Shown: positions 503-36,310 of the stretch, piece after piece
Layout of the letters: every line of letters starts with the position of its first letter
Position numbering within the stretch: the stretch's first letter is position 1
DNA from: an uncultured virus (IMG/VR IMGVR_UViG_3300042691_014085)
Lineage: Duplodnaviria; Heunggongvirae; Uroviricota; Caudoviricetes
DNA: 64,000 nucleotides
Virus record (IMG/VR): IMGVR_UViG_3300042691_014085
Coordinates: 1-64,000 of that record
Direction: 5' to 3' (one strand)
Notes under the pieces: model-generated
Seen by the model: the letters and a program-made list of their open reading frames with translations, nothing else
The model's database searches: none
Told to the model about the DNA's origin: nothing
Made by a program: the position numbers and the translations under genes

Positions 503-518
503 TGTGAGTTTTCTCACA
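503..518. promoter_or_regulatory. CRP/GlxR-type box
   Basis: perfect TGTGA-gttttc-TCACA upstream of promoter TTGATA(560)-N17-GATACT(583). Confidence 0.6.
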
Positions 519-619
519 AAACTTTTTTTCAAAATGTCCGTTTTGATCGCATTTTGGATTTGATATTTTTCTGAGTGTGTGAGATACTTACAGAGTAACA
601 GAAAAGAAAGGGGCAAAAA

Positions 620-778: not shown

Positions 779-838
779 GCTTGCTATAAATAACTAAATC
801 CGCTAGACTTGCTACATAACCTAAAGAAAGGGGCTAAA

Positions 839-2738: not shown

Positions 2739-2864
2739 AAGCTCCCCAAAGGGGCCCCGAGCCGTTTTGTCCGTTTTGCCCCCTTTACGTAGAAACACCT
2801 ATTTACGGCAAGTTGATATTTTTTCCCGAATCTGCTAAGCTTGGTTTATTCAGAAAGGGACACC

Positions 2865-3943: not shown

Positions 3944-3974
3944 CCACCTGAGCAAGTGGAGGATAAACTGCTCA
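3944..3974 (+). ncRNA. 3'-UTR H-type pseudoknot, copy 1
   Basis: CCAC/GTGG stem, TGAGCA/TGCTCA second stem, TAAAC linker. Confidence 0.7.
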
Positions 3975-4035
3975 ACTTGATTTTATCTTGGCAAAATGCT
4001 AAGATTTATACCACCAAACAGAAAGGGAAAAACAA

Positions 4036-4467: not shown

Positions 4468-4500
4468 GGTGCTGGGTATCACCTAAGGTAAAACTGCCCA
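4468..4500 (+). ncRNA. 3'-UTR H-type pseudoknot, copy 2
   Basis: GGTG/CACC stem, TGGGTA/TGCCCA second stem. Confidence 0.7.
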
Positions 4501-4531
4501 CAACAAAACACCTAACAGAAAGGAAAAGCAA

Positions 4532-4706: not shown

Positions 4707-4734
4707 AGTCCTGAGCATGACTATAAACTGCTCA
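4707..4734 (+). ncRNA. 3'-UTR H-type pseudoknot, copy 3
   Basis: AGTC/GACT stem, TGAGCA/TGCTCA second stem. Confidence 0.7.
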
Positions 4735-4762: not shown

Positions 4763-4778
4763 TGTGATCCTTCTCACA
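4763..4778. promoter_or_regulatory. CRP/GlxR-type box
   Basis: perfect TGTGA-tccttc-TCACA upstream of TTGTAT(4799)-N17-TAAACT(4822). Confidence 0.6.
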
Positions 4779-4853
4779 CGGGGGCTTTACGGGATAAGTT
4801 GTATTTTTCCCAGATTAGTGCTAAACTTGGTATATACAGAAAGGAAACCACCA

Positions 4854-5575: not shown

Positions 5576-5731
5576 CAAATAATCTTGGGCCCTGGGATCT
5601 GTGGTGGTGTCCTGGGGCCCCCGCTAATTAACTCGGGGGCGATTTGTCCTATATGTCCGATTTACGATTTACGATTTGTATTCCCAGATTTTGTGTGCTA
5701 AGATTGCTATAACTAACAGAAAGGTAATAAA

Positions 5732-6748
5732 ATGGCTCATGAACTAGAAACTCAAAACGGTGTTGCATCTTTTGCATCTTTCCGTGAACCTGCATGGCAT
5801 GGTTTAGGAACAGTATTTACAGAAGAAAAGAACACCGCAGAAATGTTGGCTGCTGCTAACCTAAATAACTGGAATGTTCGTCTTGTAGATGTTGAGATTC
5901 CTAACACCCTTACATCAGATAAGTCTTATCAATATGTTGTAAGAACTAATCCTACTAACAATAACCAGACAGATGTTTTGGGTGTTGTAGGTGAGCGATA
6001 TGTTCCATTGCAGAATGAAGACCTATTCGCATTTGGCGATAACATTCTAGATGGTGGCGGTAGATGGGAGACCGCTGGCTCAATCAAGGGTGGTCGTGTA
6101 GTATTTGGCTCTCTTGCTCTTGAGCGTGAGACAGTGCTAGACCCTAGCGGTGTTTCGGATAAGGTCAAGACTTATCTTCTCATCAACACATCACATGATG
6201 GCTCTATTGCTATTCAAGCATCTATCACGCCAGTGCGTGTTGTATGCGCTAACACTCTCAATCTTGCATTGGGTAGTAAGCGTGGCAAGAATGCAATCAA
6301 GCAATCATTCAAGATTCGTCACACACAATCTGCTAATGGTCGTGTGCAGATTGCTCGTGAGACTCTTGGTCTTGCTAATAAATACATGGATGCTTTTGAT
6401 CTCATGGCTAAGACCATGATTGAGAAAGAAATCACAGCGCAACAGTTCAACGACATTGTGCTTGCGATTTATCCTAAGCCAGAAGATGAGAAGAAAATCG
6501 CTCTCACTAAGTGGCAAAATAAGATTGACCTCATCAATGATATTTACACAGGTGAATATAACGGGATGATTGCTAACACCGCATGGGGTGCAATGAATGC
6601 TCTAACCGAAAGATTAGATTGGCATCGTTCTGCTCGTGGTGGTAGTAATGAATCCGTCCTTGCTGCTGCTTCTGGTTTTGATGCTTCTATCACTGCAGAA
6701 AAGAATCGCATATTGCAAACAGTGCAGAATGTGCTAGCGATTGCATAA
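5732..6748 (+). CDS. DUF932 / TIGR03299 phage-plasmid protein
   Basis: PAWHGLG, Y.PLQN..LF, ETAGS..GG, NTSHDGS, TPVRVVCANTL, IRHT motifs. Confidence 0.9.
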   Translation: MAHELETQNGVASFASFREPAWHGLGTVFTEEKNTAEMLAAANLNNWNVRLVDVEIPNTLTSDKSYQYVVRTNPTNNNQTDVLGVVGERYVPLQNEDLFAFGDNILDGGGRWETAGSIKGGRVVFGSLALERETVLDPSGVSDKVKTYLLINTSHDGSIAIQASITPVRVVCANTLNLALGSKRGKNAIKQSFKIRHTQSANGRVQIARETLGLANKYMDAFDLMAKTMIEKEITAQQFNDIVLAIYPKPEDEKKIALTKWQNKIDLINDIYTGEYNGMIANTAWGAMNALTERLDWHRSARGGSNESVLAAASGFDASITAEKNRILQTVQNVLAIA

Positions 6749-6758
6749 GTAAATCGCA

Positions 6759-6786
6759 ACTCCTGAGCAAGAGTATAAACTGCTCA
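6759..6786 (+). ncRNA. 3'-UTR H-type pseudoknot, copy 4
   Basis: ACTC/GAGT stem, TGAGCA/TGCTCA second stem. Confidence 0.7.
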
Positions 6787-6817: not shown

Positions 6818-6833
6818 TGTGATTTTTGTCACA
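6818..6833. promoter_or_regulatory. CRP/GlxR-type box
   Basis: perfect TGTGA-tttttg-TCACA upstream of TTGCTT(6884)-N17-GATAAT(6907). Confidence 0.6.
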
Positions 6834-6937
6834 GCTCATTACGTACTAGATTAGATTTTTCCCAAATCTTTATTACGTTGACCTTGCTTTTTTCCCCCAA
6901 ATATGGGATAATAAAATATCTCACAGAAAGGGAAATA

Positions 6938-7215: not shown

Positions 7216-7437
7216 TGTGGGGTAAGTCACACTCCTATACCTTGCCAAATACCACCAAATATGCGATACTTGGAATATCAAACAGAAAGGATATAACATG
7301 GATGTAATAGTCACTATTTGCTACTCTACTGATGACGAGGATGTAAATGCCTCTGTGTCTAGTCTCTTAGACAATACCCTGCCTTATATGGCAGACAATG
7401 TAGATGTTGTCTGGAACATTATTGGAGAAGATAACTA

Positions 7438-11282: not shown

Positions 11283-11474
11283 ATGTTTAATTCTAGAGGA
11301 ATCCCAACTGCTGCGTGTCCATGCTGTGGCTCATCGCTTATCCGCATTACCGCTCAGTTTGATCCCAACAGCTATGAATTAATATCATATCTATTAGACG
11401 ATGCTCAATGTGCTGATTGCCAGTGCCTTCTTACTGCGCCAACACCACTAGATCATCCAGAGGCGGTTTTATGA
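11283..11474 (+). CDS. small zinc-ribbon protein
   Basis: RGIPT.ACPCCG...CADC..LLTAPTP; leaderless-type start. Confidence 0.7.
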   Translation: MFNSRGIPTAACPCCGSSLIRITAQFDPNSYELISYLLDDAQCADCQCLLTAPTPLDHPEAVL

Positions 11475-12046
11475 GAATATTAGTTTTGGCGCAAAGCCGT
11501 TCAGGTTCAACAAGTCTTTCTGCTTGGCTCAAATCTGAAACAGGCGAAGAAGTTATGTTGGAACCCTTTAACCCACATGCTAACACAGAAGAGCAGTTGG
11601 CAGCACAGTTAGAATGGGTTAACTCAGATAGAGGTCTTATCCTTAAGTTTGTTGATAATATGTTTCTTCAGGTCAATGCAATTGAATCTGTAGATTGGCT
11701 TATGTCAAAGTTTGACAAAGTAATAGGATTAACAAGAGAAGATGATGACGCTTGCGCTTATAGCAGACTAGTTGCACATCTTGCAAATGATTACAGAGGA
11801 TCTGCAGATACAGCCGAAGTAGATAACATGGTCATTAATCAAAATGCCGATCTTCTCTCATCTTACAAGACACATGCAGCAACTCAAAAGGCATACATTC
11901 GTAACCTTGATATTTTTCAGATTACATTTGAAGAGCTTTATGAGCAGCAGGATGCAAGCAGGCTTATTGAATATCTTGGCATTACCCCCACAAATCTAGA
12001 TTATTTGTTTGAGAATAAGAATCAGACCAATAACTGGAATATCTAA
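11471..12046 (+). CDS. sulfotransferase-like P-loop protein
   Basis: SRSGSTSL PAPS-binding loop, EPFN, ITFEEL. Confidence 0.65.
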   Translation: MRILVLAQSRSGSTSLSAWLKSETGEEVMLEPFNPHANTEEQLAAQLEWVNSDRGLILKFVDNMFLQVNAIESVDWLMSKFDKVIGLTREDDDACAYSRLVAHLANDYRGSADTAEVDNMVINQNADLLSSYKTHAATQKAYIRNLDIFQITFEELYEQQDASRLIEYLGITPTNLDYLFENKNQTNNWNI

Positions 12047-12344
12047 TATGCTATCATATAGATATGGAAAAATGCTTTTACTGTGATCAAGACGCTCTTT
12101 ATCATGATGTTGTAATTGATAGAGAAAATTTTGTTATTGCTGATGTTTGCAAAAAACATTTCTCAGTTAGCTTTGTGAGCTAATGACTTGTTCTTTTTGT
12201 AATCAAATATCATATACTTCCAAGATAGATAACAGGGGAGTTAAGTGGTATTTGTGTATGCAGCATTATAAAAATATTAACCTATAGCGCAACGGAGTTG
12301 CGTAGGGTGGTTTATTATTTCCTATTAGCGCCGAGCTTTAAAGC

Positions 12345-12374
12345 TTGACAAAGCCCAAATAACTTTGCTATAAT
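12345..12374 (+). promoter_or_regulatory. consensus sigma-A promoter driving a non-coding RNA
   Basis: TTGACA-N18-TATAAT with extended -10 TG. Confidence 0.8.
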
Positions 12375-12380
12375 ATACAT

Positions 12381-12476
12381 AGAGGGTTGATGAAAATCCC
12401 CTCTTTACGCTCCTTACCCTTTCTGGGGAGCGCTTGGACCGCCGAGATCCCTTTCTGTCTTGGCGGTCCTTCTTAT
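12381..12476 (+). ncRNA. three-hairpin small RNA with CCCUUUC(UG) anti-SD loops
   Basis: hairpins 12381-12404 (GAAA loop), 12408-12432, 12436-12469 followed by T-rich tail; no convincing ORF. Confidence 0.75.
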
Positions 12477-12586
12477 TGTATAATGGTGTTATGTCAATAG
12501 TTGAGGATATCTATCCTGTGCGTAGAGATATTGATGATCATATAGATAACTTTGACGATCTGGGCATTGTTTGATATACTGTTTAC

Positions 12587-12787
12587 GTGGCTGATCCAAA
12601 TCAAACTCCTAAGCGTGGTAAGTGGGCTTGCCCATGTAGCGGCTGTCAAAAAGCTGTTGCACATGAAAGAGAACAATTAATTTATTTTCTTGAATATATG
12701 AAGCATAATGATTATGCTGAAGAATTTTATGATATGTTTATTGATATGATTAAAGCAAGAATGCCAAAACCAAAGAAGAAGTTATGA
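12587..12787 (+). CDS. hypothetical protein
   Basis: CPCSGC motif; promoter TTGACG-N17-TATACT directly upstream. Confidence 0.7.
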   Translation: MADPNQTPKRGKWACPCSGCQKAVAHEREQLIYFLEYMKHNDYAEEFYDMFIDMIKARMPKPKKKL

Positions 12788-13220
12788 AACCATTATTTAT
12801 TATTTTATTAATTATATTTGCAGCAGTTAACTATATGGCATGGAAGCAAGGCTGCTATTATTGTTGGCCTGGAAATCCTTATCCGAATGGAGAATAAAAT
12901 GAACGAAAAAGAGTTTGACGTAGAGTACCCCATTGGTGATGGGGATATGATGAAACAAATAATAACTAGTATACTTACTGATACCCGCACAACTTTTGTA
13001 GAATTTGAGGTGAATGATGAGTAAATTTAAAGCTATAGCAGCAGTGGTTGGAGCTCTTGGTATTGCTGGCGCAGTATACCAATACTTTAAGAACGATCTT
13101 GATCTTACTTTTGGATTAGAGGAAGATGAAGATGGAGATGTTTGAATTTGTTTTGTTTAGTATTTTTGCAGTAATACTTACATCATTTTTAGCTGGCATA
13201 CTTTATATACTATCAAAATA

Positions 13221-13814
13221 ATGCACTCAGACAAAGATATTCTTGCAGCATTTATTGATATTCAAAAGGTAATGCTGCCAAAAATTACTATTGAAGTGGG
13301 TGCATATGATGCAGATTTTTCTAAGTCAATGGTTGGCATAGCGAAAGAAATTTATGCATTTGAGGCTAGCCCATTTGTGTATGAAAAATTTAAAGATATT
13401 CCTGGTGTAGACTACAGAAACTTAGCTATATCTGATGTATCTGGTGAGATAGATTTTGAAATACAGATTGATCAACATAAACTAACATCTAATAATTCAA
13501 TAATGAAAAGAAATGATAAGGGAAATAAAGAATACATATCTGTAAAATCATCCACTCTTAACGAGTTGTTTGAAGATAAAAAAAATATAGCTTTATGGAT
13601 TGACTGCGAAGGTGCAAATGGTCAGGTGCTCACGGGGGCATCAAGTATACTTCCAAATATAGGCAGCATATGTATTGAGGTTGAGACAGCAAGATTTTGG
13701 AAAGATCAATGGTTAGAGCAAGATGTCAAAGAATATCTTGCTGGTTTTGGATTTAGATTATCAATGTCTGAGCCACAATATACCAATCAATTCAATCAAA
13801 TATATATAAGATGA
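13221..13814 (+). CDS. FkbM-family methyltransferase
   Basis: IEVGA, YAFEA, LWIDCEGA, IEVE motifs. Confidence 0.85.
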   Translation: MHSDKDILAAFIDIQKVMLPKITIEVGAYDADFSKSMVGIAKEIYAFEASPFVYEKFKDIPGVDYRNLAISDVSGEIDFEIQIDQHKLTSNNSIMKRNDKGNKEYISVKSSTLNELFEDKKNIALWIDCEGANGQVLTGASSILPNIGSICIEVETARFWKDQWLEQDVKEYLAGFGFRLSMSEPQYTNQFNQIYIR

Positions 13815-13826
13815 TATAATCTTACT

Positions 13827-14102
13827 ATGACATTACATGCTATCTATACACTGAGTGATTCTGAGGCTACCCGCCTGACTCCAAATACTACCCATAGTGG
13901 TATGGACATTACGATACAAAACATAAATTCTTCGGGGTATGTGTATGTTGGCAACGCTAGCGTCACAACAACAGATTATGGATTTAGGATATTGCCTAAT
14001 CATTCAATATCTTTTGAACTACCTGGTTTTGATGAACTATTTATCATGGGATCTGCTGATGGCTTACAGGCAGCAGTAATTAAAATAAATCTGGAGAAAT
14101 AA
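13827..14102 (+). CDS. hypothetical beta-rich protein
   Basis: IQN....VYVG...V....YGF.I pattern. Confidence 0.75.
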   Translation: MTLHAIYTLSDSEATRLTPNTTHSGMDITIQNINSSGYVYVGNASVTTTDYGFRILPNHSISFELPGFDELFIMGSADGLQAAVIKINLEK

Positions 14103-14916: not shown

Positions 14917-14990
14917 GGAACAGTAGCTTAGTTGGTTAAAGCCCCGAACTCATAATTCGGTCATCGTAGGTTCAAGTCCTACCTGTTCCA
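14917..14990 (+). tRNA. tRNA-Met or tRNA-Ile2 (CAU)
   Basis: full cloverleaf, CCGAA-CTCATAA-TTCGG; G1-C72 paired, so not initiator. Confidence 0.9.
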
Positions 14991-14995
14991 CGTTT

Positions 14996-15069
14996 GGAAT
15001 GCGGCTGGCTGGTGGTCAGAAGGTGTCTTATAAGCATCTTGGAGTTTGGTTCAATTCCAAAGCATTCTA
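14996..15069 (+). tRNA. tRNA-Ile (UAU)
   Basis: GGAATGC/GCATTCT acceptor, GGTGT-CTTATAA-GCATC anticodon arm, TTCAATT T-loop. Confidence 0.8.
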
Positions 15070-15071
15070 CT

Positions 15072-15144
15072 GTCCCTATAGCTCAGTTGGTAGAGCAGCA
15101 GACTTTTAATCTGCGGGTCCTTGGTTCAAACCCAAGTGGGGACA
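15072..15144 (+). tRNA. tRNA-Lys (UUU)
   Basis: canonical cloverleaf, GCAGA-CTTTTAA-TCTGC. Confidence 0.95.
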
Positions 15145-15148
15145 CTGA

Positions 15149-15221
15149 GCCCCTATAGCCCAGCGGTAGAGGCAGACGACTTAAAATCGTCCAAGCGTTG
15201 GTTCAAATCCAACTAGGGGTA
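15149..15221 (+). tRNA. tRNA-Leu (UAA), short variable arm
   Basis: GACGA-CTTAAAA-TCGTC; 5-nt variable region. Confidence 0.9.
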
Positions 15222-15241
15222 CTGTATGGTATAATTTAAAA

Positions 15242-18356: not shown

Positions 18357-18429
18357 TGGTCTGTAGCTCAGTTGGTAGAGCGTCGCACTGTTAATGCGAA
18401 TGTCGCAGGATCGTGCCCTGCCAGACCAG
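18357..18429 (+). tRNA. tRNA-Asn (GUU)
   Basis: cloverleaf TCGCA-CTGTTAA-TGCGA; atypical T-loop ATCGTGC. Confidence 0.85.
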
Positions 18430-18433
18430 CTGA

Positions 18434-18507
18434 GGTCCATTAGCTCAGTTGGTTAGAGCGCTTCCCTGTCACGGAAGAGGTCGTCAGTTCAAGTCTGATA
18501 TGGATCG
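18434..18507 (+). tRNA. tRNA-Asp (GUC)
   Basis: CTTCC-CTGTCAC-GGAAG. Confidence 0.95.
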
Positions 18508-18511
18508 CCCA

Positions 18512-18584
18512 GTCCCCATCGTCTAGAGGCCTAGGACATCGCCCTTTCACGGCGGTAACACGGGTTCAAATCCCGTTGGGGATA
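18512..18584 (+). tRNA. tRNA-Glu (UUC)
   Basis: TCGCC-CTTTCAC-GGCGG. Confidence 0.95.
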
Positions 18585-18613
18585 CGGGGAAACCCACTTA
18601 TATAAGGAGAAAG

Positions 18614-19708: not shown

Positions 19709-19780
19709 GCCTCCCTAGCTCAGTGGTAGAGCATCCGCCTTGTAAGCGGAAGGTCGTCAGTTCAATCCTGACGGGGGGCT
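19709..19780 (+). tRNA. tRNA-Thr (UGU)
   Basis: TCCGC-CTTGTAA-GCGGA, canonical cloverleaf. Confidence 0.95.
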
Positions 19781-19805
19781 CTAATCTTTATGGTAAAATG
19801 TATAT

Positions 19806-20789: not shown

Positions 20790-22208
20790 ATGATTATATT
20801 AGGAATTAATGAAACATCTCATGATGCATCTATATCTTTAGTAAAAGATGGAGATATACTTTTTGCTGCTCATGCTGAAAGATATAGTAAAAAGAAAAAT
20901 GATTGGTATAACAATAAAGATATCTATTTGGATATGCTCAATTATGGTACACCAACACATATAGCGTATTATGAACACCCTCAACTAAAAAGATCACGGA
21001 TATTTTTAAAAGGTGGAGCATCGGACTGGAAACCAAATATTCCAATTAATTTACCAGTTAAATATTTTAATCATCATTACTCTCATGCAGCAGCAGGATA
21101 CTATACAAGCAAATTTAATGATGCAGTAATTGTTGTATTAGACGCTATTGGAGAATGGAATACCGCAACAATATGGGTTGGAAATAATAATATAATAAAA
21201 CCTGTCAAAAAATTTAATTACCCATTCAGCTTTGGTTTATTTTATTCTGCATTTACGCAACTAGTAGGTCTTATGCCTAACCAAGAAGAATATATTATGA
21301 TGGGAATGGCAGCATATGGAGATCCAAATAAATATTTTAATAAGGTAAATTCATACTTTCCATCAATTAATAAACAAAAATATAATTTTCATAAAGGCAT
21401 ATCTGACTGGGGATTAATAACAGAACAAGATAAATTTGATATTGCTGCTGCAGTACAAAAAGTTTATGAGTTACGTTTATTAGATTTTATGAGAATGGCA
21501 AGATCACTAACTGGAAAAACTAATTTAGTTTTTATGGGTGGTTGTGCCCTTAACTGTTCTGCTAATACAAAGCTTTGGAGCATATTTGATGATATATGGA
21601 TTATGCCAAATCCTGGCGATGCTGGCTCTTCTTTGGGTGCTGCCGCAGCTCTGTATGGTGAACACTTAAATTGGAAGGGACCATATCTTGGCCATGATAT
21701 ATCAAATCAATATCCTGTAAATGAAATTATAACGTCTTTAATAAAAAATAAAATAGTTGCAGTAGCAAACGGTAGAGCAGAATATGGTCCAAGAGCTTTG
21801 GGCAATAGAAGTATATTAGCAGATCCAAGAGATCCAAATATTAAAGATGAAGTTAATAAAATTAAAAAAAGAGAACTTTTTAGACCATTTGCTCCAGTTG
21901 TTTTAGAAGAATATGCTAGCAAATGGTTTGATATGAAATTTACTTCACCATATATGCAATATGCTGTTAAGTGTTTAAAGCCAGAGCTTATACCGTCTGT
22001 GGTTCACAAAGACGGCACATCAAGAGTACAAACAGTAAACAAAGAACAGCACCCTGGATTACATGAAGTCTTGTCCAACTGGTATTCTTTAACTGGAATA
22101 CCAATACTATTAAATACAAGCTTAAATGTAAAATCTCAACCATTGCTAAATGATAAAAAAGATATATTAGAATGGGAAAGTATTTATGGAGTAAAAATAA
22201 TAGTATGA
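20790..22208 (+). CDS. O-carbamoyltransferase (NodU/CmcH family)
   Basis: HDAS, HHYSHA, GGCALN, EYGPRALGNRSIL, RPFAP, NTSLN. Confidence 0.95.
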   Translation: MIILGINETSHDASISLVKDGDILFAAHAERYSKKKNDWYNNKDIYLDMLNYGTPTHIAYYEHPQLKRSRIFLKGGASDWKPNIPINLPVKYFNHHYSHAAAGYYTSKFNDAVIVVLDAIGEWNTATIWVGNNNIIKPVKKFNYPFSFGLFYSAFTQLVGLMPNQEEYIMMGMAAYGDPNKYFNKVNSYFPSINKQKYNFHKGISDWGLITEQDKFDIAAAVQKVYELRLLDFMRMARSLTGKTNLVFMGGCALNCSANTKLWSIFDDIWIMPNPGDAGSSLGAAAALYGEHLNWKGPYLGHDISNQYPVNEIITSLIKNKIVAVANGRAEYGPRALGNRSILADPRDPNIKDEVNKIKKRELFRPFAPVVLEEYASKWFDMKFTSPYMQYAVKCLKPELIPSVVHKDGTSRVQTVNKEQHPGLHEVLSNWYSLTGIPILLNTSLNVKSQPLLNDKKDILEWESIYGVKIIV

Positions 22209-24325: not shown

Positions 24326-24973
24326 TTAAACTGTGGTTTTAAATATAATAAAACAATAGCTGGCGGTATTATCAAAAGTAACTAAGATAAAGTTATATTT
24401 ATTATCTTTAAGATATTTCTTTATAGGTTCATGGGTATAGTAGGTATCTTCAATTACATAAATACCGTTGTGTTTTAGCTTATCCCAGGAGTTTTCAAGA
24501 AAGGTTATGTTGGCATGAGCCTCATGTAAGCCATCGTCTAAAATAACATCAAAGTCAGATTCGCCTATTTGTTCCCACATAGTCTTAATTGATTCTGGAT
24601 CAGTTTGATCAACATAGTATGTTTTAATTCTATCTTCTTCAAACAATATTCTAGAGTCTATGTCTGCTCCATATATCTGAGCATTCCAAAAGTAGTCTCT
24701 CCATCCCCTCAAAGATGCCCCTGGCTTACCATTAGATGTCATGTTAGACTTAACATCTTCATTATTTGTTCCGATACCGCACTCAAAAATCTTCTGAGCG
24801 CTATCACGAATTGTTCCAAATAAGATATGATAAATATCGGTATATCTATTAGCTATCCATCCTGAAGGAGTAATATCTACTTCGTGTGGAGATCCTTTAT
24901 CGCTTCCATAATTTTTCATTAAATGAGATAAAAAGTTGGCACCCTTATCATACTCAATACTTATTTTATTCAT
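24326..24973 (-). CDS. class I SAM-dependent (sugar O-)methyltransferase
   Basis: YGSDKG, ECGIG, SLRGWRDYF, DQTD, DDGLH, YVIED. Confidence 0.85.
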   Translation of the reverse strand: MNKISIEYDKGANFLSHLMKNYGSDKGSPHEVDITPSGWIANRYTDIYHILFGTIRDSAQKIFECGIGTNNEDVKSNMTSNGKPGASLRGWRDYFWNAQIYGADIDSRILFEEDRIKTYYVDQTDPESIKTMWEQIGESDFDVILDDGLHEAHANITFLENSWDKLKHNGIYVIEDTYYTHEPIKKYLKDNKYNFILVTFDNTASYCFIIFKTTV

Positions 24974-24974
24974 G

Positions 24975-25694
24975 TTATCCCCATTTTCTCATTACGAACT
25001 TATCATAAAAATATTCCATTGCAGATTTTGGTGGAATATAATTTTTATCTATTCCGCCACGAGTTGTCATTGAATGATATACAGAAATACTTTTTGATGT
25101 TTTTTCTAATAGCTTAATTTCTTTTAGATTGTTAGGATTCCATAATTTTTCCCATTGTGACCAATGTATCCCGCAAAACATTTCCATCGGATAAACACTA
25201 TCCATTAAATTAAATTTTCTAAAAGCTTTGTCTACAAGTGCTGGACCAACATCAGTCCACTTAATTTTTGTCTTATCAAACTTTGTTGATTTCTTAATTA
25301 AATACTCAAGGGCTGGAGAATTTTGAGGTAATGATAAAACACCACCCACTACTGTTTCATTTTCAAGACATGCATATGTATCACCTAGGTTATCCCAGTC
25401 GTAGGATAAACATATGGTATCTGCATCAACCCAGGCTAATCCCGTTTTTTTAATCATCCTATATCTAAAAAGATCAGAAAAAGCTGCATAAGTATTTTGT
25501 ACAAGAAATAATTCTGACTCATCCATTATTGATCTAGCGTCTTCTTTTTTTATTCCATTCGGAACTTCCATGTTCAAGTCATAAACATATAGAGTTAAAT
25601 TATGCTTATGGTATACAAAAGATGACAAGGATATCTCCTGTATCTTTGTCATACTATTGCCAACCCATAAAGATCCAAAGTTTGCCATAATCAA
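24975..25694 (-). CDS. GT32-like DXD glycosyltransferase
   Basis: FSDLFRY, WVDAD, GPAL. Confidence 0.85.
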   Translation of the reverse strand: MIMANFGSLWVGNSMTKIQEISLSSFVYHKHNLTLYVYDLNMEVPNGIKKEDARSIMDESELFLVQNTYAAFSDLFRYRMIKKTGLAWVDADTICLSYDWDNLGDTYACLENETVVGGVLSLPQNSPALEYLIKKSTKFDKTKIKWTDVGPALVDKAFRKFNLMDSVYPMEMFCGIHWSQWEKLWNPNNLKEIKLLEKTSKSISVYHSMTTRGGIDKNYIPPKSAMEYFYDKFVMRKWG

Positions 25695-26296
25695 ATCACA
25701 ATCTTATTATTTGAGAATTTAAAATTAGTTGCTGCCCTATTGCTGTTTTGATAAAATATTGGATCTGACACTGCGTACACATTATAATATCTTTGTATTC
25801 TAGCAAATCCTTGATCAATATGTATGCCATTGTCCATAGAATATTTAGCAACTCTTGCACAAGCATCCATATATTCTTTATTTATATAAAGAATAGCATG
25901 AGTTGACAACATTGAGCTAATTTTATATACGCTTCTTACATTTTCATGTTTTTTAAAATCAAAATTTTTTGGTTTTGATATATCATCTCTATACCCCCAT
26001 TGGGATAGCCCAAGATAGACTGCATCGGCATCGTTTGGCACTTTAATTATTGGTTGATTATTTTTTATAATACAATCATCTTCTAAAATTATTGTTTCTT
26101 TTTTTAAATCTTTTAGTATGTTGTAATGAGAAGAAGCACATCCTGTTATAGGATTTTCAGGATTATAAACAGCATTAATTCTATTATAATTTTTAAAACC
26201 AAAATTATTGCCAAGATCAATCATTGAGTTATTTTTTTCTTTATGCTTGGCTATGTTGATGTAATAAGTATCTATATCTCTTAGATCAATTATCAT
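25691..26296 (-). CDS. GT25-like glycosyltransferase
   Basis: YYIN, GCASSH, ILEDD, STHAILY. Confidence 0.8.
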   Translation of the reverse strand: MIIDLRDIDTYYINIAKHKEKNNSMIDLGNNFGFKNYNRINAVYNPENPITGCASSHYNILKDLKKETIILEDDCIIKNNQPIIKVPNDADAVYLGLSQWGYRDDISKPKNFDFKKHENVRSVYKISSMLSTHAILYINKEYMDACARVAKYSMDNGIHIDQGFARIQRYYNVYAVSDPIFYQNSNRAATNFKFSNNKIVI

Positions 26297-27014
26297 TTTT
26301 AACCAACTTTTTATTTATAATATATTTATTTGTAAAATCTACCTTTTCTTTTTTTAAATTTTTTGCTGTTGCTAAACTATCTTTTATAAAAGTTATGTGA
26401 GTATTGAGTTTTTTCATTTTATAATTTGTAAAGTTAGCTATATAATATGAGAACCACAAATCATCCAATACCCAGTACTCTTCTGGGCAACTAAACAAAT
26501 TATCATCTAAGAATATGGATGCATTACATAGTAGCCCTCCTCCACCAACGTAGTTGCCTTCCTCATATGGATCAAGCATTTCTTTTTTCCAATAATCTCC
26601 TATTATCATATGAGCATAAAATGATTTTACTATATTTTCATCATATTGATTATAACAGTCTTGAATAAAATCTGGCGGTATATTTTGATCATCATCTATG
26701 AATATAATTTTTTCATATCCCTCATTTGCCAAATCTCTTGCTAAATAAAACCTACCAAATATACTGTATTGATTCCAATACTCTTTAACAAATAAATTAT
26801 AGGTTATGTGTGACTGGTATCTATTTATTATTTTTAAAAGTTTAGGATTTGCTCCTGAATTATCACATATATAAAAATCAAAATCTTTATTTGTTTGGTT
26901 TGATAAATCTTTATAGGTTTGTGGCAAATTCCTAAATCTTTTATAGGTGCACATTATCAGTGCTGTTTTAGATTTTGGTTTTATTTGTTTTTCATATAAT
27001 ATATTCATAATCAT
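26286..27014 (-). CDS. GT2-like glycosyltransferase
   Basis: CTYKR, FIDDD, DDLWFS. Confidence 0.8.
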   Translation of the reverse strand: MIMNILYEKQIKPKSKTALIMCTYKRFRNLPQTYKDLSNQTNKDFDFYICDNSGANPKLLKIINRYQSHITYNLFVKEYWNQYSIFGRFYLARDLANEGYEKIIFIDDDQNIPPDFIQDCYNQYDENIVKSFYAHMIIGDYWKKEMLDPYEEGNYVGGGGLLCNASIFLDDNLFSCPEEYWVLDDLWFSYYIANFTNYKMKKLNTHITFIKDSLATAKNLKKEKVDFTNKYIINKKLVKNDN

Positions 27015-27443: not shown

Positions 27444-28454
27444 TTACATTATAGCATGTGGCTTTGATTCTGATAATGATGCCTGAGACACCAAAGTATA
27501 TTCAGAATTTTCTGCCAACTCTGATAGTTTAGATACCCCAGAATAGGAACATCCACTACCAATACCACCTTTAATTTGATTAAATATATCTTGAACAAAA
27601 CCTTTATATTTTATTTTTGCAGAGACTCCCTCAACAACCGAGATCTCACCTTTCCAGCTCATCTGTGCCTCTCCACTAGCCATGCCACGAAGCTCTTTAA
27701 AGCCATCTATAAGCTTTCCTGGAGCCTCTTCTGTGCCCGCTAGCATAGATCCAAGCATCACCAAATCTGCGCCTGCTGCAAAGGCTTTTACGATGTCTCC
27801 AGAAGTTCGTAGTCCACCATCAGCAACAATTAATGTTTTAATATTATTATTAATCTTATACTCGTAGGCATCCATAACGGACTGCAAAGTTGGCATGCCG
27901 TGACCAGAAACAATCCTAGTTATGCAGGTCGCACCACCACCAATGCCAACTCTTACTGCATCAGCACCAACATCTGCTAATCTTGCATAACCTTCTGCTG
28001 TTGCAACATTTCCAACCATGATGTTGATTCCAGGATAGTAAGCTCTTAAATGCTGGGTAGCACGAATGGCAGCTTCACCATGACCATTAGCGGTATCAAT
28101 ACAAAACCAATTACATCCAAGATCAACAGCATCATCAATAAACTGAGTATCAAAACATTCTAATGAGGATAACGCAACACCAATGCCATCTTTATTGTGT
28201 GCCGAAATAGATACATTTTCAATCTGATATAGTCTTTCAGCAGTATCCATATAGCGATGAATAATTCCAATACCGCCTTCATTTACAATCTCAATAGCCA
28301 TCTGCCATTCACAAACGGTATCCATAGGAGATGCAACTATTGGAAAAGAATATCCATACATTGTAAGGTCTACATTTTTTCTACTTTCTACATTTGAATA
28401 ACCAGGAAGTAGAAGAATATCATCAAAACATAAAGATTCTGAATTCTTTTTCAT
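27444..28454 (-). CDS. IMP dehydrogenase / GMP reductase family protein (no CBS domains)
   Basis: SPMDTV, GIGIIHR, VGIGGGATCITR, ADGG, RGMAS. Confidence 0.9.
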   Translation of the reverse strand: MKKNSESLCFDDILLLPGYSNVESRKNVDLTMYGYSFPIVASPMDTVCEWQMAIEIVNEGGIGIIHRYMDTAERLYQIENVSISAHNKDGIGVALSSLECFDTQFIDDAVDLGCNWFCIDTANGHGEAAIRATQHLRAYYPGINIMVGNVATAEGYARLADVGADAVRVGIGGGATCITRIVSGHGMPTLQSVMDAYEYKINNNIKTLIVADGGLRTSGDIVKAFAAGADLVMLGSMLAGTEEAPGKLIDGFKELRGMASGEAQMSWKGEISVVEGVSAKIKYKGFVQDIFNQIKGGIGSGCSYSGVSKLSELAENSEYTLVSQASLSESKPHAIM

Positions 28455-33329: not shown

Positions 33330-33343
33330 ATTTGACCTTTCTG

Positions 33344-34132
33344 TTAGTTATTTCCTGGAAAATCTAAGTATCCCCACATGCCAGTGAACTCTCTATCTTT
33401 TGGATCAAATCCTCCAGTTACAGCATGACACATTTTATAAATATCAACCATAAGGAGGTCTCCTTGTTTCCATTTATGTACAATCCTTATATCTAAATCA
33501 TTTAAAACTTTATCTCTAATTAATTTTATAAGATTTTTATATTTATTTATTTGATCTAAGGTTGGTTCATTTCCATCAAAAGTTTTTAATTCTGTATTAG
33601 CTTTAGCATCCATTAGCCATGCTGTTCTAATTACTGGATTATGATTAAGCCAGTGATATCCTATTACCCCATGAATATTTTTAACATTATCAGATGCATC
33701 TAATTTATTTTCTTCTATACATTTTTTTAAAAAGTCTTGATCTTCTTCAGACAGGCTATTAAATAAAAGCTCCATATCAACAAAATATGTTTTTCCATTT
33801 TCTGAATCAGTTGTAAACTTATGCATATTCCACGTTGAGAATACTATTGGAACTTTATAATATGGGTGTTCTACATGCCAGTCAAGCATTACATCGTCTG
33901 GGCCGCAAGTTTCTCTCCTAGTACTAGCAGCATGATTTTCTACATATTCTGTATTAATATCCATACAACCAAATTTTTCTTTTAGCATCGTATGCAATTT
34001 GTCATGGTTGTTTTTTGATAAGTTTGCACCGTTAAATGCTATAACCTTATGCTGCAAAAAAAGATTTTTATAAAAATCAAAATTATACTCTATATCCTCT
34101 ATACTAGTAAACTCTATGCGATAGGTTTCCAT
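33344..34132 (-). CDS. TauD/TfdA-family 2OG dioxygenase
   Basis: WHVE, GKTYFVD, HKWKQGDL..D...H...R; probable start METYR. Confidence 0.8.
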   Translation of the reverse strand: METYRIEFTSIEDIEYNFDFYKNLFLQHKVIAFNGANLSKNNHDKLHTMLKEKFGCMDINTEYVENHAASTRRETCGPDDVMLDWHVEHPYYKVPIVFSTWNMHKFTTDSENGKTYFVDMELLFNSLSEEDQDFLKKCIEENKLDASDNVKNIHGVIGYHWLNHNPVIRTAWLMDAKANTELKTFDGNEPTLDQINKYKNLIKLIRDKVLNDLDIRIVHKWKQGDLLMVDIYKMCHAVTGGFDPKDREFTGMWGYLDFPGNN

Positions 34133-34666: not shown

Positions 34667-36310
34667 TTATATTATACCAGAGCTGACAAGTTTTGCAACT
34701 TCTGGAAACCAGATATAGTCTAATGTACTATTATTTAATGTATCAATTGCATCTTGTGGTGTTTCTACAAGAGGTTTTCCAGCTAAATTAAAACTTGTAT
34801 TTAATAAAATGCCAATACCAGCTATATCTTTAAACTCTCTAATTAATTGTTGCATTATGGGGTTGTTATCACTAATAGTTTGTATTCTACAGGTATCATC
34901 AACATGAACAACACCAGGAATAAGATGTTTAAATTCTTTAACTACAGGGAAAGATATTGTCATAAATTCGCTTTTGCCTACCCTGCCAGTTTCAAAAAAT
35001 GTACTAGCGTCTTCTTCAAGAACCATTGCCGCAAAAGGTCTATACCATTCTCTTTTTTTAATCTGATTAACCTTATCCCTGGCATTTGGATCTCTAGGAT
35101 CAAAAAGAATTGACCTATTGCCAAGAGCCCTTGGGCCAGCCTCTGCTAATCCATTATATACAGCAACGCTCTTTCCAGACGCTATAAGACTTGCAACATC
35201 TGTAATAGATGCATCAATTCCTTTTATATTATTCAAGTCATAATTAAATCCATTAAAAAATGTATGCTCTAGTTTTTTTATTGTTGTATCAAGAGTTGTA
35301 TCTCTGTATAGCTTCATTGCAGCACCTATACTATTACCAGAATCGTCAGCAAGCGGCTCAAAGAAAAAATTAATGTCTGGAAATTGAGTTATATAATAGT
35401 GATTTGCCACAACATTTAGACCATATCCTCCAGTTATGCAAACATTTTTTATTCCAGTCTGTCTAACATACTTATCAATAAGTTCAGCAACTGCTTCTTG
35501 AGTTTGTTTTTGAACTTGCCAAGCATAGTCTGCATACACCTGGTATCCTTCTTTTGGTACCTCATTAACTGCTAAATGATGAAGATCTCTATTGGTAGAT
35601 GCTTTCATATCTTTAATTTGATCATGCCCAAAATAATAATCATTGGGTGTTATTTTATCTATAAATAAACTTGGATAATTAATATTTTTATTTCCATATG
35701 CTGATAACCCCATTACTTTTCCATTTTCAAGAGGATGCTGCTTTATTAATGATGTAGCAGATTCATAAACCTTAATAATGCTAAACATTGATCTTCCATT
35801 TATATCGCAATCTGGATTTTCTTTTTTAAAATTTGCAATATGCTGATGTGCATCATTTTTTTCTATCCAAAAGTTTTTGTATATTGGTATAAAATTATTT
35901 GGATATGACGCTATAAATACTGTTTCTGACTCTCTGCAAGAATCAAAATATACAGATCCATTTCTGTCAATTACAAAAACTAAAGCTTCTTTAAAGCCAC
36001 TATCGTAAAATGCTAAATTTGCATGTACTAAGTGATGTTGATCAGAATACTCTATAATATCTATTGCTTTATGTTTCTTTTTTACAAGATTTAAATATGA
36101 ATCGGCAACCGTTGGTCTAAAAGTTGGGGAAGAAAAAGCTACGCTTATGTTTTGAGAATCAGTATTATACAAAAACATTGACAACGCTGGATGGGTATCT
36201 CTTTTTAAACCAGTTACCCTTTCTTCTTTGCAAAAATATTTAATTTCGTTATCTTTTAAAGCACAGAACGACGAGTCATGATTAAAAGAAATACCAAAGA
36301 TTTCATCCAT
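34667..36310 (-). CDS. O-carbamoyltransferase (NodU/CmcH family), second copy
   Basis: HDSS, HHLVHA, GKVMGLSAYG, GPRALGNRSIL, NTSFN. Confidence 0.95.
   Translation of the reverse strand: MDEIFGISFNHDSSFCALKDNEIKYFCKEERVTGLKRDTHPALSMFLYNTDSQNISVAFSSPTFRPTVADSYLNLVKKKHKAIDIIEYSDQHHLVHANLAFYDSGFKEALVFVIDRNGSVYFDSCRESETVFIASYPNNFIPIYKNFWIEKNDAHQHIANFKKENPDCDINGRSMFSIIKVYESATSLIKQHPLENGKVMGLSAYGNKNINYPSLFIDKITPNDYYFGHDQIKDMKASTNRDLHHLAVNEVPKEGYQVYADYAWQVQKQTQEAVAELIDKYVRQTGIKNVCITGGYGLNVVANHYYITQFPDINFFFEPLADDSGNSIGAAMKLYRDTTLDTTIKKLEHTFFNGFNYDLNNIKGIDASITDVASLIASGKSVAVYNGLAEAGPRALGNRSILFDPRDPNARDKVNQIKKREWYRPFAAMVLEEDASTFFETGRVGKSEFMTISFPVVKEFKHLIPGVVHVDDTCRIQTISDNNPIMQQLIREFKDIAGIGILLNTSFNLAGKPLVETPQDAIDTLNNSTLDYIWFPEVAKLVSSGII

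What the first reader, a model, noticed from the sequence alone, without database searches (positions are those of the whole stretch)
12345..12476. Phage small RNA presenting two anti-Shine-Dalgarno loops that match the early-gene RBS
Seen: a consensus TTGACA-N18-TATAAT promoter (extended -10) points into ~96 nt of non-coding sequence that folds into three hairpins and ends in a T-rich tail. Hairpins 2 and 3 have different stems but share a loop core: CCCTTTC (12417-12423) and TCCCTTTCTG (12448-12457). 12448-12458 is the exact 11-nt complement of ACAGAAAGGGA, the RBS at 4018 and 6923. CAGAAAGGGA at 2851 and ACAGAAAGG at 4515, 4836, 5716 and 7282 also match. Known: the actinobacterial 16S 3' tail ends CCUCCUUUCU, and multi-hairpin sRNAs with C/U-rich loops (6C, cuckoo, RsaE) act on RBSs. 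Inference: a 16S-tail-mimic sRNA that occludes AGAAAGG-led mRNAs, shutting off phage early genes and possibly host translation.
Basis: partly seen in the sequence, partly recalled or inferred. Interest (0 to 1): 0.9.

Follow-up and report, generated by a model that had tools for sequence, protein, structure and literature searches.

The report
Phage small RNA with anti-ribosome-site loops
An uncultured freshwater phage, probably of actinobacteria, carries a real, conserved small non-coding RNA whose hairpin loops can pair with the unusual ribosome-binding site used only by its block of probable early genes, so it probably regulates their translation, though the RNA and its effect have not been seen.

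Summary
A perfect TTGACA-N18-TGnTATAAT promoter at 12345-12374 leads into about 96 nt that fold into three hairpins (z = -7.1). The last hairpin is a 13-bp terminator.

It is an RNA gene, not a chance fold. Related viral contigs carry a family of these genes. In 17 distinct relatives the two loop-bearing stems are 100% paired, and 9 of 12 pairs show compensatory changes. Several members have no ORF. Rfam has no match.

Every variant presents CCUUUCU in a loop. That motif is complementary to AGAAAGG, a Shine-Dalgarno form used almost only by the same-strand gene block upstream: 10 of 29 genes against 1 of 85 elsewhere in this genome.

Relatives without this RNA carry a differently built CCUUUCU-loop element at another site. 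The two forms never occur together in the 80 loci examined.

Against a tailored RNA-target pair:
- The loop's extra bases are not mirrored by the consensus ribosome-binding site.
- A loop variant shows no matching change in the binding sites.
- No transcript was seen.

Verdict: a real phage sRNA of an uncatalogued family, most likely an anti-Shine-Dalgarno regulator. The function is inferred. This scan noted the same RNA before on another genome (e1-6018739).

The parts
12345..12350 (+). -35 hexamer TTGACA of the sRNA promoter
   Evidence: 12 of 12 consensus match
12366..12374 (+). extended -10, TG-c-TATAAT
   Evidence: relatives carry an equivalent promoter directly upstream
12381..12479 (+). 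predicted sRNA transcript of about 96-100 nt; the start is inferred 7 nt after the -10, the end lies in the U-rich tail
   Evidence: ends are not mapped experimentally
12381..12404 (+). hairpin P1 (AGAGGG...CCCUCU), the variable module
   Evidence: replaced by an unrelated hairpin in L296 and absent in L162 and L086
12408..12432 (+). hairpin P2; its loop presents CCCUUUCUG (12417-12425)
   Evidence: the homologous helix is 100% paired with 4 of 6 pairs compensatory in 17 relatives; the stem differs completely in L162
12436..12469 (+). hairpin P3, the intrinsic terminator stem; its loop presents UCCCUUUCUG(U) (12448-12458)
   Evidence: against L162 two pairs changed on both sides and one changed C-G to U-G
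12470..12479 (+). U-rich tail UUCUUAUUGU
2851..2860 (+). candidate target RBS CAGAAAGGGA (GP88-family gene)
   Evidence: loop duplex -16.9 kcal/mol
4018..4028 (+). candidate target RBS ACAGAAAGGGA (140-aa gene)
   Evidence: -17.3 kcal/mol
4515..4523 (+). candidate target RBS ACAGAAAGG
   Evidence: -12.8
4836..4844 (+). candidate target RBS ACAGAAAGG
   Evidence: -12.8
5716..5724 (+). candidate target RBS ACAGAAAGG (DUF932 gene)
   Evidence: (-12.3)
6923..6933 (+). candidate target RBS ACAGAAAGGGA
   Evidence: -17.3
7282..7290 (+). candidate target RBS ACAGAAAGG
   Evidence: -12.8
605..613 (+). candidate target RBS AGAAAGGGG
   Evidence: -13.0
825..833 (+). candidate target RBS AGAAAGGGG
   Evidence: -13.0
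33336..33344 (-). the only strong loop-complementary RBS outside the block (ACAGAAAGG)
   Evidence: -12.3

Best explanation
The locus encodes a roughly 96-nt trans-acting small RNA. It is transcribed from its own consensus sigma-70-type promoter and ended by hairpin P3.

Its working parts are the C/U-rich loops of P2 and P3, with core CCUUUCU. This core has the same sequence as the far 3' tail of actinobacterial 16S rRNA (recalled knowledge). The loops are therefore complementary to the AGAAAGG form of Shine-Dalgarno sequence that this phage lineage uses for the block of small, probably early, genes upstream on the same strand.

I infer that the loops pair with those binding sites over 7-11 nt, compete with the 30S subunit, and lower translation of that gene class. 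The rest of the genome uses GGAG/GAGG-type or leaderless starts and would escape.

Shown: the RNA gene, its structure, conservation of the loop core, and class-specific complementarity. Inferred: transcription, pairing in vivo, the direction of the effect (repression), and the timing.
For: Gene signals and fold:
- Perfect promoter and terminator in the right order.
- Fold z = -7.1.

Family and covariation:
- Of 118 held loci, about 24 carry the hairpin architecture.
- In 17 distinct sequences, P2 and P3 are 100% paired and 9 of 12 pairs have changes on both sides. The covariation score is 0.380 against 0.139 in shuffles (0 of 500 as high) and at most 0.089 for slid partners.

Members found by synteny, so independent of the loop sequence, keep the core:
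- L162: stems changed; its first and last loops keep the core, while an extra middle hairpin loop carries only UUUCU.
- L166: loops UACCUUUCUG.
- L165 and L174: one loop plus a tail motif.
- L296: P1 swapped, P2 and P3 kept.

Not coding: L102 and L072 have no start codon, L162 has at most 3 codons and L086 at most 6. A gap column between P2 and P3 breaks any reading frame.

Class specificity, counting binding-site windows with loop duplex of -12 kcal/mol or stronger, block against rest:
- G000: 11 of 29 against 1 of 85 (p = 5e-7).
- G001: 8 of 28 against 3 of 131.
- G002: 3 of 16 against 1 of 93.
- G004: 7 of 32 against 1 of 78.
- G005: 8 of 33 against 3 of 46.
- The reversed-loop control gave 0-1 in the block.
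- AGAAAGG sites: 10 of 29 against 1 of 85 in G000. The rest of the genome uses GGAG/GAGG.

Co-occurrence across 80 syntenic loci: 18 of 23 loci with 6 or more AGAAAGG sites have a CCTTTCT-loop hairpin, against 10 of 57 with fewer (Fisher p = 5e-7). Of the 5 exceptions, 2 have the type B element by eye (L163, L178), 1 is cut at the locus end (L171), and 2 end before the place to look (L164, L168).

Replacement: relatives lacking this RNA carry a differently built CCUUUCU-loop element. The two forms are never together and are interleaved on the DUF932 tree.

Precedent: in Mycobacterium the C-rich loops of 6C RNA bind G-rich binding sites without a chaperone (PMC6486639, abstract and passages).
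Against: - No transcript has been seen.
- The block's consensus is AGAAAGG followed by A, not the loop's full complement. G follows in only 5 of 10 sites in the window and in fewer sites in relatives.
- No loop-target covariation. L166, with UACC loops, has GGTA in 2 of 14 sites, against 4 of 12 in L172 with UCCC loops.
- Orthologous binding sites differ in no consistent way between genomes with and without the RNA.
- The loop invariance in alignment A1 is partly circular, because 16 of its 17 rows were found with a loop pattern.
- The co-occurrence counts include near-identical contigs and few independent lineages. The tree is only the quick version.
- In the window's minimum-energy fold only 7-8 loop bases are unpaired.
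- A consensus promoter would fire at the same time as the supposed targets.
Confidence: 0.5

Rival explanations
1. Decoy or sponge. The loops imitate the 16S rRNA 3' tail, or another CU-rich ligand. They would soak up a protein or enzyme that recognises that sequence, such as a host nuclease or defence factor acting on the 16S tail, ribosomal protein S1, or a phage RNA-binding regulator. They would not pair with mRNA.
For: - Two or three identical motifs sit on stable stems, as in protein-titrating RNAs.
- The invariant part (CCUUUCU) is exactly the part shared with the recalled 16S tail. The target-specific flanks do not track the binding sites.
- In 12 of 17 relatives a third (C/A)CUUUCU copy lies in the 3' tail, right after the last structure.
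Against: - No candidate partner gene is consistently linked. The downstream neighbours differ between members.
- The strong link between the loop element and AGAAAGG usage is not predicted by a decoy for a host factor.
Confidence: 0.2
2. The RNA pairs with the same binding sites, but the outcome is positive or protective. For example, it could shield the mRNAs from a nuclease or stabilise them rather than silence them.
For: The complementarity evidence is the same as for the best explanation. The consensus promoter suggests expression together with the block.
Against: Pairing over a Shine-Dalgarno sequence normally blocks initiation (general knowledge; PMC6486639, passages). Nothing here points to activation.
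Confidence: 0.1
3. A cis-acting element only. The hairpins would be terminators or insulators closing the upstream block, or a leader for the downstream genes. The loops would be conserved for a reason that acts in cis, or at the DNA or single-stranded-DNA level.
For: - It lies at the border between the AGAAAGG block and a region of leaderless-type genes.
- The type B element in relatives lies inside the block with no clear promoter of its own and may be a 3' UTR.
- P3 is a terminator.
Against: - A dedicated 12-of-12 promoter sits directly upstream and is conserved in relatives.
- The next gene has its own -10 box and no Shine-Dalgarno sequence to sequester.
- Terminators do not need invariant loops on covarying stems.
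Confidence: 0.12
4. It encodes a small protein (ATG at 12390, 36 codons).
For: An ORF exists in the window (12387-12500). A GAGGG lies 4 nt before the ATG.
Against: - The ORF is not conserved. L102 and L072 have no start codon, and L162 and L086 have at most 3 and 6 codons.
- P1, which holds the ATG, is replaced in L296.
- Gaps break the frame.
- The substitutions are compensatory for pairing.
Confidence: 0.02

Closest known systems
6C / B11 sRNA of Actinobacteria (Rfam 6C family)
   Same: It is a short RNA of an actinobacterial system with stable hairpins. Its C-rich loops pair with purine-rich ribosome-binding sites and repress translation without Hfq (PMC6486639, abstract and passages).
   Different: - No Rfam match, even at E <= 1.
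- The loops are CCCUUUCU, not C runs.
- It is phage-encoded. None of the 46 pattern hits in bacterial genomes has the hairpin form.
- The candidate targets are the phage's own gene block.
c4 antisense RNA of phages P1 and P7
   Same: It is a phage-encoded structured RNA whose loop sequences pair around the ribosome-binding site of a phage mRNA and block translation (review PMC12197685, passages).
   Different: - c4 targets one operon (ant) through specific complementary sequences.
- Here the loops match a generic Shine-Dalgarno form shared by 10 or more genes.
- There is no Rfam match.
C/U-rich-loop anti-Shine-Dalgarno sRNAs of bacteria (RsaE/RoxS, cuckoo/CcsR); properties recalled, not read here
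   Same: Several hairpins present repeated pyrimidine-rich seeds aimed at Shine-Dalgarno regions.
   Different: The seed sequences and hosts differ. None of these Rfam families matches.
Start-associated sequences of cluster K mycobacteriophages
   Same: A conserved motif that includes the Shine-Dalgarno sequence lies a few nt before the start codons of many non-structural genes, in one orientation. The authors left open whether a phage- or host-encoded RNA or protein binds it (PMC3203893, passages).
   Different: The motif differs (13-bp GGGATAGGAGCCC there, AGAAAGG here). No complementary RNA was reported there.
Abundant early non-coding RNAs of cluster A mycobacteriophages (L5, D29, StarStuff)
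   Same: These are actinophage non-coding transcripts made from a strong early promoter, of unknown function and toxic to the host (PMC5712189, abstract and passages).
   Different: That region is about 500 nt and lies at the genome end. No relation in sequence or structure was tested here.

Membership tests
Trans-acting base-pairing sRNA (generic class) | Own promoter and terminator delimiting a short transcript with no conserved ORF | tested here: met
   12-of-12 promoter and 13-bp terminator; no conserved ORF
Trans-acting base-pairing sRNA (generic class) | Conserved secondary structure with compensatory changes | tested here: met
   P2 and P3 are 100% paired, 9 of 12 pairs compensatory, 0 of 500 shuffles as high; window against L162
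Trans-acting base-pairing sRNA (generic class) | Conserved single-stranded seed | tested here: met
   The CCUUUCU core is kept in members found by synteny (L162, L165, L166, L174, L296). The invariance in A1 itself is partly by construction.
Trans-acting base-pairing sRNA (generic class) | Seed complementarity to target mRNAs beyond chance | tested here: met
   CAGAAAGGG occurs 5 times against 0.37 expected. 11 of 29 block genes against 1 of 85 others; the reversed-loop control gave 0.
Trans-acting base-pairing sRNA (generic class) | Covariation between seed and targets | tested here: not met
   The L166 loop variant is not mirrored in its binding sites (2 of 14). Orthologous sites show no consistent difference.
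Trans-acting base-pairing sRNA (generic class) | Detected transcript and a regulatory effect | not testable with these tools
   Only assembled contigs of 3 RNA runs could be laid. These cannot show a 100-nt RNA.
6C RNA (Rfam) | Match to the family covariance model | tested here: not met
   No Rfam hit at gathering score in the window, nor at E <= 1 in 8 loci
6C RNA (Rfam) | Chromosomal gene of Actinobacteria with C-run loops | tested here: not met
   The loops are CCCUUUCU. 0 of 46 pattern hits in genome contigs have the hairpin form.
c4 RNA / cuckoo / RsaE (Rfam families) | Match to the family covariance model | tested here: not met
Start-associated sequences (cluster K phages) | A repeated motif directly upstream of the start codons of non-structural genes, in one orientation | tested here: met
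   AGAAAGG lies 5-12 nt before an ATG at 10 sites on the + strand within 1-7.3 kb. 10 of 29 against 1 of 85.
Start-associated sequences (cluster K phages) | The 13-bp consensus of cluster K | tested here: not met
   The motif here is AGAAAGG; the cluster K consensus is as given in PMC3203893

The most novel reading that the evidence does not exclude
The phage lineage uses two translation 'dialects'. One is a 16S-tail-type Shine-Dalgarno sequence (AGAAAGG) for its probable early block. The other is GGAG-type or leaderless starts for everything else.

In this reading, a phage-made surrogate of the 16S 3' tail, the CU-loop RNA, is the switch. As it accumulates it captures the AGAAAGG sites, shuts off the early block as a class, and frees ribosomes for the leaderless and GGAG-led genes that begin right after it.

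The switch would be modular. The promoter-driven form (type A) and the form inside the block (type B) have replaced each other repeatedly. Earlier notes of this scan describe analogous loop RNAs in unrelated phage groups, so RNA-based class shut-off of early translation may be a general phage strategy. It would be the RNA counterpart of the T4 RegA and RegB proteins (recalled).
Probability: 0.25. Interest if true: 0.8.

Novelty: new variant of a known kind. Interest (0 to 1): 0.66.

Why it matters
[quoted passage not shown] It is not known as a class-wide RNA mechanism.

Here a conserved phage RNA, a private Shine-Dalgarno form confined to one gene block, and their linked presence in relatives give a concrete, testable pair. 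It would also supply a candidate answer to a question that the cluster K phage work left open: whether an RNA recognises start-associated sequences (PMC3203893, passages).

Neither the RNA family nor the linked pseudoknot motif is in Rfam 15. My literature searches found no description of either.

Tried and rejected
- Rfam: only 7 tRNAs at gathering score, and nothing at E <= 1 in 8 loci.
- blastn of 11400-13900 against isolate phages found no match.
- Expression: contigs of three metatranscriptome runs lie only on 11297-12021, not on the sRNA. Contigs of such libraries cannot show a 100-nt RNA, so this says nothing either way.
- Bacterial genomes: 46 pattern hits, all tandem repeats or coding sequence, none with the hairpin form.
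Five stretches were window-type family members, all with the same P2 and P3 stems as the window, so it added no covariation.
- Loop-target covariation was looked for and not found.
- Small-protein reading: rejected.
- Streptomyces phage NootNoot has the syntenic DUF932 block but no AGAAAGG site, no pseudoknot motif and no CU-loop RNA. It is therefore not a ready model.
- Model R1 scores the window's own sRNA at only 24.9 bits, because the window lacks P4. R1 cannot exclude window-type copies, so the CCTTTCT-pair pattern was used instead (0 of 4 records).
- The careful tree did not finish, so the quick tree was used.
- A first palindrome pattern was mistyped by one base and gave nothing above chance. 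It was corrected.
- Literature searches for a described phage anti-Shine-Dalgarno sRNA of this kind returned nothing relevant.

Full report
**What the window is.** The window is the first 64 kb of a 75,969-bp IMG/VR viral record, about 70% complete, with about 36% G+C. Seventeen freshwater DNA runs from several studies hold the whole 4-kb query stretch.

- Its DnaE-like polymerase is 53% identical to those of Streptomyces phages.
- Its DUF932 protein (5732-6748) finds 621 phage records. These are mostly phages of Mycobacterium, Streptomyces, Microbacterium, Arthrobacter and Gordonia, with the best hits at 51% to Streptomyces phages.
- A GP88 domain is present.
- TATAAT-N5-7-ATG arrangements, the layout expected for leaderless mRNAs, number 43 against 19.2 (maximum 28) in mononucleotide shuffles.

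From these I infer a low-G+C freshwater actinobacterial host. No tool named the host.

- The promoter TTGACA-N18-TG-c-TATAAT (12345-12374) is the only 12-of-12 match among 27 promoter-like sites in 10-15 kb.
- The + strand 12381-12480 folds into P1 (12381-12404), P2 (12408-12432) and P3 (12436-12469). The energy is -46.5 kcal/mol, z = -7.11, and 0 of 200 shuffles fold as well.
- P3 has 13 pairs and is followed by UUCUUAUUGU, so it is terminator-like.
- The loops carry CCCUUUCUG at 12417-12425 and 12449-12457. The complement CAGAAAGGG occurs 5 times in the window against 0.37 expected.
- AGAAAGG lies 5-12 nt before an ATG at 10 + strand sites between 58 and 7284, and at one - strand site (33342).

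**It is a conserved RNA gene.** About 24 of the 118 held loci have the motifs in hairpin loops behind a promoter. Most of these have a fuller architecture:

- a promoter;
- a variable P1;
- two 6-bp hairpins, each with the 10-nt loop UCCCUUUCUG;
- a 3' pseudoknot-like domain (P4);
- in 12 of 17 distinct sequences, a tail (C/A)CUUUCU that abuts the -10 box of the next gene.

On the alignment of 17 distinct sequences, P2 and P3 are paired in 100% of cells and 9 of 12 pairs change on both sides. The covariation score is 0.380, against 0.139 in shuffles (0 of 500 as high) and at most 0.089 when partners are slid.

Sixteen of the 17 rows were found through the loop sequence, so loop invariance in that set is partly by construction. 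I therefore collected relatives by synteny instead: 80 loci around homologues of the DUF932 gene and 6 loci around the 191-aa gene upstream of the sRNA. These gave members that the pattern would have missed:

- L162: other stems, with loops CCCCUUUCU, UUUCUAAUUA and UCCCCUUUCUG.
- L166: both loops UACCUUUCUG.
- L165 and L174: a single loop hairpin plus the tail motif.
- L296: P1 replaced by an unrelated hairpin, P2 and P3 kept, P3 loop with one extra A.

Against L162, the window's P3 has two fully compensatory changes and one C-G to U-G change, and P2 has an entirely different stem. The core CCUUUCU is what survives.

**It is not coding.** L102 and L072 have no start codon. L162 has at most 3 codons and L086 at most 6. 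A gap column between P2 and P3 breaks any common frame.

**It is not catalogued.** Rfam 15 has no match. None of 46 pattern hits in one-per-species bacterial genomes has the hairpin form.

**What the loops match.** With my own crude gene calls, binding-site windows that form a duplex of -12 kcal/mol or stronger with the loop are concentrated in the same-strand block within 14 kb upstream of the sRNA:

| Genome | Block | Rest |
|---|---|---|
| G000 | 11 of 29 (p = 5e-7) | 1 of 85 |
| G001 | 8 of 28 | 3 of 131 |
| G002 | 3 of 16 | 1 of 93 |
| G004 | 7 of 32 | 1 of 78 |
| G005 | 8 of 33 | 3 of 46 |

A reversed-loop control gave 0-1 in the block. The reason is that the block uses its own Shine-Dalgarno form. 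AGAAAGG precedes 10 of 29 block genes against 1 of 85 others in G000, with similar figures in the four relatives. The rest of the genome uses GGAG/GAGG (29 of 85) or nothing recognisable.

The three best sites (genes starting at 2865, 4036 and 6938) give -16.9 to -17.3 kcal/mol with the loop.

**Linked presence in relatives.** Among the 80 syntenic loci:

- 18 of 23 loci with 6 or more AGAAAGG sites have a CCTTTCT-loop hairpin on the sense strand.
- 10 of 57 loci with fewer sites have one (Fisher p = 5e-7).
- These rows include near-identical contigs, so the p value overstates independence.

Four close relatives with enough downstream DNA (L163, L167, L169, L178) lack the sRNA at the syntenic place. 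The L178 record is 92% complete. None of the four records holds any pair of CCTTTCT motifs.

They carry instead a differently built element between the genes upstream of DUF932. It consists of:

- a hairpin with a GAAAGG-containing loop;
- a second hairpin with the 17-nt loop CUUUCAUCCUUUCUUA, whose stems covary between L169 and L178;
- the pseudoknot motif.

Variants occur in L177, L218, L219/L220, L228 and L232. In the 80 loci the two forms never occur together.

On a quick maximum-likelihood tree of the DUF932 protein they are interleaved inside one well-supported clade, with 3 changes needed for each label. The careful search did not finish. L164 and L168 remain unresolved because their loci end before the place to look. 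I read this as repeated replacement of one CU-loop module by another, which argues that the loop, not the scaffold, is under selection.

**What speaks against a tailored RNA-target pair.**

- The block's consensus is AGAAAGG followed by A, as expected for pairing with the recalled 16S tail. G follows in 5 of 10 sites in the window and in fewer sites in relatives.
- L166, whose loops read UACC, has GGTA in only 2 of 14 sites, while L172 with UCCC loops has it in 4 of 12.
- Orthologous binding sites show no consistent difference between genomes with and without the promoter-driven form.

So the loops have adapted to a Shine-Dalgarno form that exists for its own reasons. The 11-nt matches at 4018 and 6923 are the upper tail of a 7-11-nt range.

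No expression evidence was obtained. Streptomyces phage NootNoot has the syntenic block but none of these features.

**Mechanism.** The best-supported reading (0.5) is a trans-acting anti-Shine-Dalgarno RNA that pairs through its loops with AGAAAGG-led mRNAs of the upstream block and lowers their translation. This works like the 6C RNA of Actinobacteria (PMC6486639) and the c4 RNA of P1/P7 (review PMC12197685), but it is a member of neither family.

Rivals:
- a decoy for a factor that recognises the 16S-tail-like sequence (0.2);
- pairing with a protective or positive outcome (0.1);
- a purely cis-acting border element (0.12);
- a small protein (0.02).

The RNA gene itself I hold to be real at about 0.9.

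**Novelty.** The kind, C/U-rich-loop sRNAs aimed at ribosome-binding sites, is known. The following appear undescribed in Rfam 15 and in my searches:

- this family;
- its phage origin;
- its link to a block-specific Shine-Dalgarno form;
- the interchangeable modules.

This scan had already noted the same RNA on another genome with the same reading (e1-6018739), and analogous loop RNAs in other phage groups. I checked the former's claims here. I did not check the others.

Noticed in passing
window 3944-3973, 4468-4499, 4707-4733, 6759-6785 (+); P4 of the sRNA in L024, L101 and others: A repeated small H-type pseudoknot motif: a 4-nt stem strand, CU, GRGYA, one base, the complementary 4-nt strand, an A-rich stretch of 3-12 nt, then UGCYC pairing back to GRGYA. 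There are 115 distinct instances in 85 sources, 268 on the sense strand against 2 on the antisense strand. The 4-bp stem is fully paired in 99 of 115 instances, with 30 different sequences; random re-pairing gives 181 of 2000. It sits after stop codons in the block's intergenic regions, often before a T run. Rfam has no match. It ends most family sRNAs, while the window's sRNA has an ordinary terminator there, so it may form or protect 3' ends.
   Followed up: partly
L163, L167, L169, L178 about 200 nt upstream of the DUF932 gene; variants in L177, L218, L219/L220, L228, L232: A second, differently built CCUUUCU-loop element. It has a hairpin with a GAAAGG-containing loop, a hairpin with the 17-nt loop CUUUCAUCCUUUCUUA, and the pseudoknot motif. 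It occurs only in relatives that lack the promoter-driven sRNA. The two loops could pair with each other over about 8 nt.
   Followed up: partly
window 12479-12574 (+); L296 2696-2791: Directly after the sRNA, a TATAAT box lies 6 nt before the ATG of a conserved 27-codon ORF with no Shine-Dalgarno sequence. The window and L296 peptides agree at 20 of 27 residues, counted by eye. The next gene (12587, GTG start) has the same layout behind TTGACG-N17-TATACT. Leaderless-type starts number 43 against 19.2 in shuffles.
   Followed up: partly
window 503-518, 755-770, 1689-1704, 4763-4778, 6421-6436, 6818-6833, 7216-7231: TGTGA-N6-TCACA palindromes, resembling CRP/GlxR-type operators (the name is recalled). 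There are 7 with up to 1 mismatch (4 exact) against 2.9 expected. All lie in the AGAAAGG block, several just after a pseudoknot motif and before the next gene.
   Followed up: partly
L167 12349-12400, L169 15160-15190, L191, L219, L228 (intergenic): Clusters of TGTGGATAA / TTATCCACA repeats, which look like DnaA boxes. In relatives that lack the promoter-driven sRNA they sit roughly where the sRNA lies in the others.
   Followed up: no
window 14917-15222, 18357-18585, 19709-19781: Eight tRNA genes in three groups (Met, Ile, Lys, Leu; Asn, Asp, Glu; Thr), 2.5-7 kb downstream of the sRNA.
   Followed up: no
window 20790-22208 (+) and 34667-36310 (-); 24329-27014 (-); 27447-28454 (-): Two Nol-like carbamoyltransferase genes, three glycosyltransferase-like genes and an IMPDH/GMP-reductase-family gene. 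These are possible auxiliary or DNA/surface-modification functions.
   Followed up: no
window 11297-12021: Contigs of three freshwater metatranscriptome runs lie on the 191/209-aa gene just upstream of the sRNA. Whether this reflects RNA or carried-over DNA was not tested.
   Followed up: no
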